From the NCBI GenBank assembly GCA_963693365.1, contig CAVNZM010000006.1, forward strand, positions 1,736,001-1,800,000: DNA of 64,000 bases, in the 5' to 3' direction. Below, one piece after another: positions 57,201-60,200 of the stretch. The translations under genes and the position numbers were made by a program. Source of the DNA: Amoebidium appalachense. Taxonomy: Eukaryota > Protista > Ichthyosporea. How positions within the stretch are numbered: the first letter of the stretch is position 1; each line of letters starts with the position of its first letter. The notes under the pieces were generated by a model. It was not told the origin of the DNA. It was given only the letters and a program-made list of their open reading frames with translations, and did no database searches.

Positions 57201-60200
57201 TCTCTCTCTCTCTCTCTCTCTTTCTTTTTTTTTTTTTTTTTTTTTTTTTTTTTTTTTGGCGCCTGTTGTTTTGCTTGTCATTTGTTGTTCTGGTTGATTA
57301 CCTGTAATCTTCTCTTATTTATGTGTATGTGTGTGTGTGTGTATGTGTATGTTGTGCGGGGTTGCACATACCGGTGTCTACTTTTCTTCTTACTGTTTTT
57401 CTCTCCACACACTTCATCTGTCCACTTCTGCATACCCCCTTTCATAGCTATAGACACACTTCACACATTGCGTTACGCGCACGCATGCACACACCGCTCT
57501 GTTGGCGACAGCTCCCTTGGAACCCATGCGGCATGTTACCCGCCGGCGTAACATAACTCGGACTATCGGTTTGGCTTTTTTCAAGCCCAAAGCAATGGGT
57601 GATACCATATTTCCGGCTGACATCCGGGGGCATAGCTTTCCGTTCGAAGACGATAAAGTTCCGCCCTAGTAAGCGTGTTACTACCCTGCGGCGTGGGTCA
57701 AATCTCATATTTTCCCCTCTGATTGCGAATTCTGCGGGCTTCGGGACTTAATTCTTTTCAGCTGGTGTGGTATGTTAGCCAGGGAAGTATCGACTTAGGT
57801 ATCGACGGGGGAGCTTCCTAGAAGCCCCGTCTCCTGAGTTCCTATCTATATTTTTCTTGCTTCTGCTTACTGCTGCAACTTTAACCCCCGGCCTTTCCCA
57901 CTGCCCTTGCCTGCATAAGCAACCCTGCTCGTCTCTGATCAAGACGGGTGACCTACTCATGTTCAAGTGAAACAGTATCTGAGTTGGGTTTCGTTAACGA
58001 GGGGAATAGGTCGAAACTCGGGTACTGTGGATGACGTGGGCCCCCCCTGAGGATGGGCTCTGCTTATTATGCATACTCTATGTATGGCTTGCATTCTGCA
58101 TCGTGTTATCCGTTTGTTCTTGTGTACTTCGTACTTTTTGACGCATTCAAACCCCCCCCCCCCCCCCCCCCCCCCCCAAGGGGTCGAAACTCAGACGCAA
58201 TTGATGACTTGGGCCCTCCCTGAGGATGGGCTCTGCTTATGACGCATACTGTGCGCATGGCTGATGCTGCATACTTGAATGTTTGCCTTTGCATGTGTCC
58301 TGCACCATGCTTCTCATCGTGATTGCGTACTTCGTACTGTGTTCCGCATTCAAACCACCCCCCCCCCCCCCCCCCCCCCCCCCCCACCCACCACCACCAC
58401 CACCACACACACACACACGTCCAAAAAAAAAAATAATAATAATAAGGACACGAAAAAATGAAGAACACCAAAGCCATGTCTTGCTCGGCTCGGCTACCTT
58501 TACAGATTTCCGTCCCCGTGCAACCCATCCTATATCCGTTGGTCTGAGTGTCCCACGTGTTGCTAGTAGTAATCGAGCACCACCACTGCCTCTCTCACTC
58601 ATGGCAGCCCATGCGAACTCCATCATCCCCCAGGCCGGGCAGGGACTTGGACTTGGCATGGACCCCCTCAGCTGGCAATTTCAGCACATGAACCCCCACG
58701 GCCTGTACGGCGCCCTGGGCACCCAGCCATCCTTTGGCCTTCCAGCCATGTCCGGCATGGCTAACGTGGGCCTGGGCATGTCCTATCCTCTTGGTGCCGG
58801 CCTGGGTGGGGCAGGGCTGGGCCTTGGGGGGCTGGGTGCAAGCAACCCCCTGCTTGCCGGGCAGTTTATGGGTGGGGAGGACATGAGCAAACAGGACAAG
58901 GAGGGCAACAAGCAAGACGATGCATGGGCTAGTCCGGCCGTGGCCAGGTCCACCATGGCCCAGCCTGATTGGATGGCCGGGCTAGGTGGTCTCCCAGTGG
59001 GGGGCCTCGGTGCAATGAGTGCTGGGCTGGGTGGTATGGGCCTGCTAGCTGGTGGGGTGGGCAGCATGGGCACCATGGGGGCTGGTGGCAGCTACCCGGG
59101 CATGGGGTTTGGCGGGGTTGGGGCTACACCGTTCATGACAAGCACGGCCTTGGGTCAGCCGGCTGTGCCTGGCAACACCATGGCCGGGGCAGGCATGCAG
59201 TCTGCACTGGATTCGGACTTGTGGGCTGCCCTTGCCCAGCAGACACAAAATGCATCGGCACAGGCAACAGTATCTGCGGCGGCACCCGAGACACCTGCAA
59301 GTGAACCTGCAAAGCAAGAGGCTCAGCCCGTGGTGGAGGTAGCGGAGGAGACGGTGGTGGCGGACAAGCAGGCACACAAGGAGACCGTGCCAACCCCGGT
59401 ACGTATTCTTGCTGTGTTCCTCATGGACTGGGCCTGTGCCTGGTAATGTGTTATCGTACTTCGTACTCCGTCATCATCCTCCCCCCCCCCCCCCCCCCGG
59501 GGGGCTCATGTTGCGTAGTCTATTGCTTGCATGCTGTTCGCATGTCGTATTCTATCGTGTTTTGCAATGATCGAGGGTATCTTGGTACTTCTTGTGGCCT
59601 TTGTTCTTTCCCCCCACCACACACACACACACACACACACACACACACACACACACACACACACACACACACACACATACCACCACCGTCGTGGCCCTTT
59701 TGGGGGGGGGGGGGGGGGGGGGGGGGGGGCTAGTACTGGGGCACATATTCCAGACCCTGATTCTTGCTCTGTTGCTCGTGCATGCCTGCATGTGCAGAGG
59801 AAGGAAACGTTTTCTTTGCTTGAAGGCCCCAGCTTTCAGCAACAGCAAATAGTGACATTGGGTGTGCTGTGTGTGTGCATGCATGCAGAAAGCGCCTGGA
59901 AGTGTAAACAGAAGATCTCGATTCGGTATTTATGTAGTGATTACGACCCAAGTTGCTGGTACCCCCATATGCAACTAACGGTCTGTGATGAAGTTAGGCA
60001 ACAGTTCCACTAATCATATGGCCCCATATCCCCAGCAACCCGAAGCAACCAAGCAGAAGCCCAAACCAGAGGAACCCAAGAAGACCAAGAAAGCAGCCTC
60101 CACACCTGCACCTGCCCAGGACGTCAAACCCCCAGCACCCAAGGAGCCCGAACGCAAACAGCCCGAAACACCAGCAACAACTGAGACACCAGTGGCCCCA

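What the first reader, a model, noticed from the sequence alone, without database searches (positions are those of the whole stretch)
57928..58060. Covarying pseudoknotted RNA inside the repeat, with a hammerhead-like half-junction
Seen in the diverged copy: hairpin CUCGUCU/AGACGGG (57928-57948); stem A GACCUA (57950-55) with UAGGUC (58007-12); crossing stem B CAGUAUCUGAGUU (57973-85) with AACUCGGGUACUG (58015-27); inner hairpin 57989-58002; hairpin GGGCCC..GGGCUC (58038-60). Young copies change sequence but keep the pairings (A GACCCU/GGGGUC, B GUCUGAGUU/AACUCAGAC, inner CGUAUAUACG). G-U pairs work only on the strand ending in poly(C), implying selection on single-stranded structure. GGUC-GAAAC is conserved in three subfamilies (also 19832) and, with stem B ending in GUU, mimics the hammerhead stem II-GAAA-stem III-NUH junction, but I find no correctly placed CUGANGA or stem I. 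Inference: an atypical ribozyme or an RT-recognition structure. This is the best candidate here for an undescribed system.
Basis: partly seen in the sequence, partly recalled or inferred. Interest (0 to 1): 0.78.

Follow-up and report, generated by a model that had tools for sequence, protein, structure and literature searches.

The report
Rewired hammerhead ribozyme outside animals
A short jumping repeat in what is likely a single-celled relative of animals carries every core letter of a hammerhead self-cutting RNA, strung in an unusual order with one helix predicted to be closed by a distant strand, and it likely cuts its own transcript, which is untested.

Summary
The missed parts lie downstream: CUGAGGA at 58047-53, and CCC (58044-46), which can pair with GGG right after GUU (GGAG/CUCC in the second subfamily). 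The blocks run site, GAAA, CUGANGA, the order of type-SGC hammerheads (Eckert 2023). Stem II's partner strand, though, lies upstream (57950-55) instead of following A9, which that paper assumed cannot happen. None of 20,000 core-fixed shuffles reached these stem lengths. By eye, 6 of 21 published Naiad 3' ends show the same layout. The motif sits in a 3'-coterminal, 5'-truncated repeat inserted in poly(C) (13 copies here), Penelope-like in anatomy; no reverse transcriptase was found. The host is likely an ichthyosporean. Naiads were reported only from animals, and (C)n targeting from Chlamys. Covariation rests on one subfamily contrast; cleavage after U57985 and transcription are untested. This scan noted the same architecture before in three windows of other genomes (animal in the two notes that say); a likely non-animal host and a poly(C) target are what is new here. 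New variant of a known kind.

The parts
57915..57921 (+). 5' strand of the closing helix (pairs 58061-58067)
   Evidence: 7 pairs in all 4 full copies; present in the free folds
57928..57948 (+). Hairpin P0, directly upstream of the stem II strand
   Evidence: its 7 pairs never vary in 4 copies, so no covariation
57950..57955 (+).
   Evidence: 6 bp with 58007-12; two pairs change on both sides between subfamilies
57956..57962 (+).
   Evidence: 7 pairs; one double and two single changes
57968..57970 (+). UGA facing GAU (58030-32): tandem G.A pairs, kink-turn-like hinge between helices III and V
   Evidence: read by eye; three-base bulge in the young subfamily, irregular in this copy; k-turn consensus recalled
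57973..57985 (+). Stem III 16.x strand ending in G16.2-U16.1-U17; predicted cut between 57985 and 57986
   Evidence: 13 consecutive pairs counting A15.1-U16.1
57986..57988 (+). Stem I 1.x strand (pairs 58044-58046)
   Evidence: 3 G-C pairs; third pair is A-U in the young subfamily, where the stem has 4 bp
57989..58002 (+). Inner hairpin linking stem I to stem II
   Evidence: sequence differs between subfamilies
58007..58027 (+). G block: stem II 11.x strand (58007-12), G12-A13-A14-A15.1 (58013-16), stem III 15.x strand (58017-27)
   Evidence: weak partial Rfam Hammerhead_1 match over 57950-58023, 14.2 bits against a gathering score of 34, E=3
58034..58040 (+).
58044..58054 (+). C block: stem I 2.x strand (58044-46), C3-U4-G5-A6-G7-G8-A9 (58047-53), extra U (58054)
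   Evidence: an extra base between 9 and 10.1 is typical of PLE hammerheads (PMC4209133)
58055..58067 (+). Strand after the core: pairs back on 58040-43 (helix IV) or on 57923-27, then forms the closing helix
   Evidence: helix IV in constrained folds; the other register is read by eye; which one forms is not resolved
57400..58151 (+). Element copy D (second subfamily), followed by poly(C) 58152-58177; true 5' end upstream of 57400, not mapped
   Evidence: contigs cover it from 57400 and run past that end
57454..57672 (+). 71-codon open frame in the 5' part of copy D; no protein family assigned
   Evidence: no Penelope-like hit
58178..58354 (+). Copy F, young subfamily, 5'-truncated inside stem II
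27902..28285 (-). Copy A, young subfamily; core and stems intact but for one stem III mismatch
28316..28696 (-). Copy B, young subfamily; core deletion and broken stem I
   Evidence: 88.6% identical to copy A
40421..40864 (-). Copy C, a 444-nt unit of the young subfamily; first pair of stem I broken
40872..41018 (-). Copy G, 5'-truncated, joined to copy C by C7: partial tandem like a pseudo-LTR
   Evidence: 98.6% identical to the end of C over 145 nt
52926..53116 (+). Copy E, young subfamily, 5'-truncated a few bases before the predicted cut
19821..19975 (+). Copy I, third subfamily, 5'-truncated, decayed C block

Best explanation
The region holds all the core letters of a hammerhead ribozyme in non-circular order inside a poly(C)-inserted repeat that is likely a non-autonomous Penelope-like retroelement, and it is predicted to fold with stem II closed by an upstream strand and likely to cut itself after U57985. 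Shown in the sequence: S block 57973-88, G block 58007-27, C block 58044-53, and complementary strands for stems I (3 bp), II (6 bp) and III (13 bp). Inferred: helix V folds back along stem III at a kink-turn-like hinge, bringing the upstream stem II strand and the C block to the core; the strand leaving A9 goes into a side helix, so the backbone is broken between A9 and 10.1. Inferred role: cutting of tandem or read-through transcripts into unit-length RNA, possibly religated to a circle of about 450 nt that an element-encoded reverse transcriptase copies in trans from a poly(C) target.
For: Every position of the consensus core listed in PMC3088659 is present in copies D and A. The four-part descriptor hit copies D and A only; 5 of 150 window shuffles and 0 of 101 control loci that already carry both core motifs gave a hit; 0 of 20,000 core-fixed shuffles reached the observed stem lengths. 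Between subfamilies five pairs change on both sides: two in II, one each in III and V, one in I. The upstream stem II is the more stable duplex (-7.3 against -2.2 kcal/mol in D, -9.4 against -5.4 in A). Six of 21 Naiad 3' ends read by eye have the same layout with other sequences, and in four of them no base up to 2 nt after A9 can pair with 11.1. Eleven of 13 copies end in C-rich DNA and all 13 end at the same 3' point.
Against: No cleavage or expression data. The five double changes come from one subfamily contrast, and the structure was derived from these sequences. The descriptor was set after seeing the element. The free-energy folds are not better than shuffles (z -0.51 and -1.43) and do not show the core; they cannot show pseudoknots. 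Stem I has only 3-4 bp. In this element a 2-bp stem II (1-nt insert) or a wobble-rich 4-6 bp stem II (2-nt insert) can also form with the strand after A9. Two of the 4 full copies are broken. Five genomic copies span the predicted cut intact. In the one PLE tested in vitro, cleavage needed protein and was not needed for insertion (PMC11167929). No reverse transcriptase was found.
Confidence: 0.68

Rival explanations
1. The fold is hammerhead-derived but cuts poorly or not at all; it is kept as a structure that the element's protein binds, for packaging or to set where reverse transcription starts.
For: In the Anolis Poseidon element, ribozyme mutants did not change insertion, cutting needed protein, and no RNA-seq reads began or ended at the cut (PMC11167929). 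PLE hammerheads often cleave weakly in vitro (PMC4209133). Five copies here span the site intact.
Against: The catalytic letters are kept in both main subfamilies while the stems change, and in six Naiad ends. No variant reached 1% at G5-A9, G12-A15.1 or U16.1-U17 in the 4 runs, though most other positions did not vary either.
Confidence: 0.15
2. It is an ordinary type-SGC hammerhead: stem II forms with the strand just after A9 (U or UG bulged), and the upstream helix is an off-state or only extends the far end of stem II by strand exchange.
For: After CUGAGGA come U-G-G, the same letters as in canonical-order cores in metagenome loci L055-L089. G-C, G.U can form with a 1-nt insert, and 4 bp (D) or 6 bp (A) with a 2-nt insert.
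Against: Those pairings are short or half wobble and weaker. The upstream strand pairs right up to 11.1 in all 4 full copies. In four of six Naiad examples the strand after A9 cannot pair with 11.1.
Confidence: 0.11
3. The core forms only between two units (domain-swapped dimer), with one unit giving the S and G blocks and the other the upstream strand and the C block.
For: Many PLE hammerheads work as dimers (PMC4209133). Tandem copies occur here (A-B, G-C, D-F). In a monomer, helix V must bend back sharply.
Against: Tandem G.A pairs lie at the place where the bend is needed (by eye). The adjacent copies are mostly truncated or from different insertions.
Confidence: 0.04
4. The stems and motifs are a chance arrangement carried along in a repeat.
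For: A loose version of the descriptor is met by 221 of 20,000 core-fixed shuffles and by 5 of 150 window shuffles. Only two subfamilies could be compared in full.
Against: 0 of 20,000 shuffles at the observed stem lengths; five double changes; the same layout in animal Naiads with unrelated stem sequences.
Confidence: 0.02

Closest known systems
Type-SGC hammerhead ribozymes (HRIMA-1 and variants; Eckert et al. 2023, PMC10085705; parts 1-6 of 8 of the text read, supplements not seen)
   Same: Block order site, GAAA, CUGANGA; pseudoknotted core; short link from stem I to stem II; a helix that can close around the C block.
   Different: There the stem II strand follows CUGANGA within 1-2 nt, an explicit assumption of that paper; here it comes from about 100 nt upstream. 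Those RNAs came from metatranscriptomes, not genomic retroelements. Here there are extra helices V and P0.
Naiad Penelope-like elements (Craig et al. 2021, PMC8557442; passages, section 9, supplement passages)
   Same: Six of 21 consensus 3' ends that I read by eye have this four-part layout; 5' truncation, partial tandems, microsatellite targets.
   Different: Naiads were reported from animals and mostly target (TA)n; the paper reports no canonical hammerhead and flags only 'core' or 'half-core' cases. Here the host is likely an ichthyosporean, the target is (C)n and no ORF was found.
Chlamys Penelope-like elements and their non-autonomous derivatives such as MRC1 (same paper)
   Same: Insertion at (C)n, 3' ends reading AA then C-run, head-to-tail short non-autonomous copies.
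   Different: None of 7 Chlamys 3' ends seen showed this layout in the stretch shown; reported from green algae, spike mosses and slime moulds.
Minimal type I hammerheads of Penelope pseudo-LTRs and non-LTR retrozymes (PMC4209133 passages; bioRxiv 10.64898/2026.07.22.740005 abstract and passages)
   Same: Hammerhead near the 3' end of a PLE-derived repeat; extra base after A9; short non-autonomous units.
   Different: Those have canonical order and a rudimentary stem III that needs a dimer; here stem III is 9-13 bp and the order is non-circular.

Membership tests
Hammerhead ribozyme | Core C3 U4 G5 A6 N7 G8 A9, G12 A13 A14 A15, U16 H17 | tested here: met
   All present in copies D and A; consensus as listed in PMC3088659. 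A natural U17 is listed for Hydra-1_oBim.
Hammerhead ribozyme | Pairs 1.1-2.1, 10.1-11.1 and 15.1-16.1 next to the core | tested here: met
   G-C, G-C (10.1 from upstream), A-U in D and A
Hammerhead ribozyme | Site-specific self-cleavage after H17 | not testable with these tools
   Needs in vitro transcription
Hammerhead types I, II, III (Rfam models) | Circular block order forming a three-way junction; Rfam gathering score | tested here: not met
   Order is S-G-C; best Rfam match Hammerhead_1 at 14.2 bits, gathering 34; none among the 150 of 155 rows listed for the whole window
Type-SGC hammerhead | Block order S, G, C | tested here: met
   U16.1 at 57984, G12 at 58013, C3 at 58047
Type-SGC hammerhead | Uninterrupted C block: stem II strand within 1-2 nt of A9 | tested here: inconclusive
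   2 bp with 0-1 nt inserted, 4-6 wobble-rich bp with 2 nt, against 6 bp from upstream; the upstream strand is favoured, so I do not file it as plain SGC
Penelope-like elements | 3'-coterminal, 5'-truncated copies, partial tandems (pseudo-LTR), microsatellite target | tested here: met
   13 copies end at model positions 385-390 and start at 2-275; 11 of 13 C-rich at the 3' side; G-C partial tandem
Penelope-like elements | PLE reverse transcriptase and GIY-YIG endonuclease in an autonomous partner | tested here: inconclusive
   No such family in the frames scanned (10; 117, drawn from the 150 longest of 236 candidates); the 71-codon frame had no PLE hit; no whole genome held
Naiad or Chlamys clade | N-terminal endonuclease, CxC motif, insertion-in-fingers domain, RT phylogeny | not testable with these tools
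   No ORF recovered; ribozyme layout points to Naiad, target and 3' end to Chlamys
Kink-turn | Watson-Crick stem, 3-nt bulge, tandem G.A and A.G pairs (consensus recalled) | tested here: inconclusive
   Fits by eye in the young subfamily and the two octopus Naiads; in copy D the tandem pairs are there but the bulge is irregular
HDV-like, twister, pistol ribozymes | Rfam models of those classes | tested here: not met
   No match at E up to 10 in 57700-58200

The most novel reading that the evidence does not exclude
A four-piece hammerhead, broken between A9 and 10.1 and hinged by a kink-turn, is an active monomeric ribozyme older than animals: ancestral in the Naiad/Chlamys group, kept in animal Naiads and in a poly(C)-targeting ichthyosporean lineage that multiplies as small RNA circles, and able to cut host pre-mRNA where a copy sits in sense in an intron.
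Probability: 0.35. Interest if true: 0.86.

Novelty: new variant of a known kind. Interest (0 to 1): 0.72.

Why it matters
If it cleaves, the hammerhead core can be built from four separate strands, not three, which breaks the assumption behind the six published permutations and means pattern searches miss a class of ribozymes. It would also explain why Naiad elements seemed to lack the hammerhead found in other Penelope-like elements, and it puts this fold outside animals. A 170-nt transcript with a predicted cut site and named compensatory pairs makes the question testable in days.

Tried and rejected
No whole genome is held. Collection scans found no family member: viral contigs 0 hits and 50 motif-only loci (1 of 50 met a loose S-G-C test); metagenomes 51 loci, 0 with a profile hit; prokaryote genomes 0. 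No RNA holder listed among 24 runs; X13 and X20 are only guessed to be RNA, so nothing is claimed on expression. The 71-codon frame: no hit in Pfam, the protein search or the Atlas; the five HMMER hits, four of which I read, are unrelated repeat proteins. Its spacing resembles by eye a short motif in Naiad ORFs shown; that is a lead only. An HDV-like reading (stem B as P1, CUAA as J4/2) was dropped: no 3-bp P3 with its loop, the C is absent in copy D, no Rfam match; HDV features recalled. A type II hammerhead using CUGAGGA was dropped: no stem III or cleavage triplet between GAAA and the core. The covariance model R1 took a poor automatic structure and added only a decayed stretch at 53272-53358. 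R-scape was not available. Weinberg 2015 (PMC4509812), cited for hammerheads with extra helices, is not held and may bear on novelty; so may the unread supplements of PMC10085705 and the closed supplements of the 2026 retrozyme preprint. One paper on an ichthyosporean genome has no main-text mention of Penelope (PMC11244446).

Full report
Observation. GGTCGAAAC occurs 7 times in the window, always in the same repeat; a related pattern gave 7 matches against 0.39 expected. The G-U pairs and the core motifs work only on the strand that ends in poly(C). Three details need correction. The copy is not decayed: 4178 of 9748 contig pieces laid from run X2 were at least 99% alike, and one contig of run X11 matches 57890-58079 without a difference (it may be this DNA's source). 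The perfect young stem B is a composite; each of the 3 full young copies has a change at its fourth pair. And CUGANGA and stem I are present.

The repeat. A profile built from 9 copies gave 16 hits at E up to 1. The 13 with E up to 0.002 all end at model positions 385-390 and start anywhere from 2 to 275; 11 of 13 are followed and 9 of 13 preceded by DNA that is at least 70% C, which makes up about 4% of 25-mers on the + strand. Copy G is a 5'-truncated end, 98.6% identical over 145 nt to the end of copy C and joined to its start by seven C: a partial tandem around a 444-nt unit. Copies A and B are adjacent but only 88.6% identical, so they are probably separate insertions. This anatomy is that of Penelope-like elements; (C)n targeting and short head-to-tail non-autonomous copies are described for Chlamys (PMC8557442). 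No reverse transcriptase or endonuclease was found in the frames scanned (10, 117, from 236 candidates), and the 71-codon frame upstream in copy D matched nothing relevant. The clade is therefore open. The host is a microsatellite-rich eukaryote; an apyrase exon matched an unnamed EukProt transcript at 96% and a gene model prefixed Ihof at 66% (prefix recalled as Ichthyophonus hoferi), ahead of animal proteins at 48-50%. That one protein points to an ichthyosporean.

The RNA. Read 5' to 3', copy D has: hairpin P0 (57928-48); stem II 5' strand (57950-55); helix V 5' strand (57956-62); stem III 16.x strand ending G-U-U (57973-85); stem I 1.x strand (57986-88); inner hairpin; stem II 11.x strand, GAAA and stem III 15.x strand (58007-27); helix V 3' strand (58034-40); stem I 2.x strand and CUGAGGA (58044-53); an extra U; then a strand that closes the whole with 57915-21. 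All core letters listed in PMC3088659 are there, and the three pairs next to the core are Watson-Crick. The block order is site, GAAA, CUGANGA: type SGC of Eckert et al. 2023. That paper treats CUGANGA and its two flanking stem strands as one block that cannot be interrupted by more than 1-2 nt. Here the strand after A9 gives 2 bp with up to 1 nt inserted, or 4 (D) to 6 (A) pairs, half of them wobble, with 2 nt inserted, while the upstream strand gives 6 bp right up to position 11.1 and the more stable duplex.

Chance and covariation. A descriptor asking for stem III of 4+, stem I of 3+ and an upstream stem II of 5+ hit copies D and A only; 5 of 150 dinucleotide shuffles of the window had a hit, and 0 of 101 public loci selected for carrying both core motifs. 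With the two core motifs fixed and the rest of D shuffled, 221 of 20,000 met the loose descriptor and 0 of 20,000 the observed lengths. The descriptor was set after seeing the element. On the 7-row alignment (4 full copies), 97.6% of 166 cells over 39 pairs are standard pairs and 4 pairs change on both sides (6 of 500 shuffles as high); stem I was left out because it is misaligned. By direct comparison its third pair changes from G-C to A-U. All five double changes come from one contrast, D against the young subfamily, so this is not an R-scape result. In contigs of four runs the two partners 57954 T>C and 58008 A>G occur at similar shares (3.7 and 3.1%, 4.2 and 4.1%, 3.4 and 3.7%, 3.2 and 2.7%), but these are unphased and may come from the other subfamilies. 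C3 and U4 vary in up to about 2% of depth. Free folds are no more stable than shuffles. Of the 4 full copies, D is intact, A has one stem III mismatch, C has lost pair 1.1-2.1 and B has a core deletion.

Relatives in print. In the supplement of Craig et al. 2021 I read by eye the last 350-400 nt of 21 of 54 Naiad consensi (chosen by motif search or partly by the authors' half-core flag, names inferred from the order). Six have this layout: Naiad_Obim, Naiad_Ovul, Naiad_Esco, Naiad-4_Dst, Naiad_Bfor and Naiad-2_Movir. Three have cores in canonical order and 12 showed neither in the stretch seen. Upstream stem II strands differ (GACACC, GACGCC, GGCCCA, GGGGAG) and each pairs with its own 11.x strand; the Esco partner is bulged and weaker. 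In Esco, Dst-4, Bfor and Movir-2 no base within 2 nt of A9 can pair with 11.1, so the upstream strand is the only candidate there. The two octopus ends have a regular kink-turn pattern between helices III and V; the young subfamily here fits it too, copy D less well (consensus recalled; I looked for it after reading note e1-8668580). None of 7 Chlamys ends seen showed the layout, but the (C)n-targeting ones end, like this repeat, in AA followed by C. These supplement sequences were not run through any tool.

How it most likely works. Shown: the letters and complementary strands. Inferred: helix V bends back along stem III, carrying the upstream strand and the C block to the core; the strand leaving A9 enters a side helix, either back onto 58040-43 or onto 57923-27; the RNA cuts after U57985. 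Inferred role: cutting tandem or read-through transcripts to unit length, perhaps followed by ligation to a circle, as proposed for PLE hammerheads (PMC4209133); a circle would account for copies that span the cut site and for the G-C partial tandem. Against a needed role: in the Anolis element cleavage required protein and was dispensable for insertion in vitro (PMC11167929). Copies D and F lie in sense within what looks like an intron (about 56678-58607, from splice signals) of a GYF-domain gene, so the motif would be transcribed with the host pre-mRNA.

Novelty. Searches found no paper describing a hammerhead broken between A9 and 10.1 or a non-circular hammerhead in a retroelement; 'type-SGC' occurs in one paper only. 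A 2026 paper says variants with additional helices have been reported; of its three sources I read Eckert, found no such passage in Forgia 2023 and could not open Weinberg 2015. The library lacks most subscription papers. This scan's notes describe the same architecture in three windows of other genomes, two of them called animal; I had written my reading down before that look-up, and those notes are not independent support. No note matched this sequence, this genome or an ichthyosporean host. Verdict: a real, conserved RNA structure; most likely a four-piece variant of the SGC hammerhead; new variant of a known kind; interest 0.72.

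Noticed in passing
window 56678-58607 (+): Copies D and F sit in sense in a likely intron of a GYF-domain gene (Pfam GYF at 56303-56776); an active ribozyme there could cut the host pre-mRNA.
   Followed up: partly
window 44666-45092: A near-perfect palindrome: arms of 208 nt, 97% complementary, 11 nt apart.
   Followed up: no
window 47890-48514: Direct repeats of about 70 and 220 nt in a lower-GC stretch just before a patatin-domain frame at 48537-49532.
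   Followed up: no
window 53249-53520 (+): A decayed stretch with weak similarity to the repeat, ending in poly(C); probably an old subfamily.
   Followed up: partly
window 58014-58024, contigs of runs X1 and X6: One contig in each run carries a short tandem of 9-10 nt units ending in AGGGT at this place (table 5c), which resembles telomere-type repeats.
   Followed up: no
L062, L070, L088, L089 (also L055): Metagenome loci with canonical-order minimal hammerhead cores, in tandem arrays of about 85-90 nt in L070 and L088; retrozyme-like.
   Followed up: partly
PMC8557442 supplement, File S5: Several bivalve, hemichordate and fish Naiad 3' ends without the hammerhead share a different conserved motif of about 50 nt that may be another structured RNA.
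   Followed up: no
window 27514-27585 (-): A tRNA gene (Rfam RF00005, 59.9 bits) about 320 nt downstream of copy A on the same strand.
   Followed up: no
window 30039-30429: A 35-39 nt tandem repeat with an inverted copy nearby, possibly a small DNA element.
   Followed up: no
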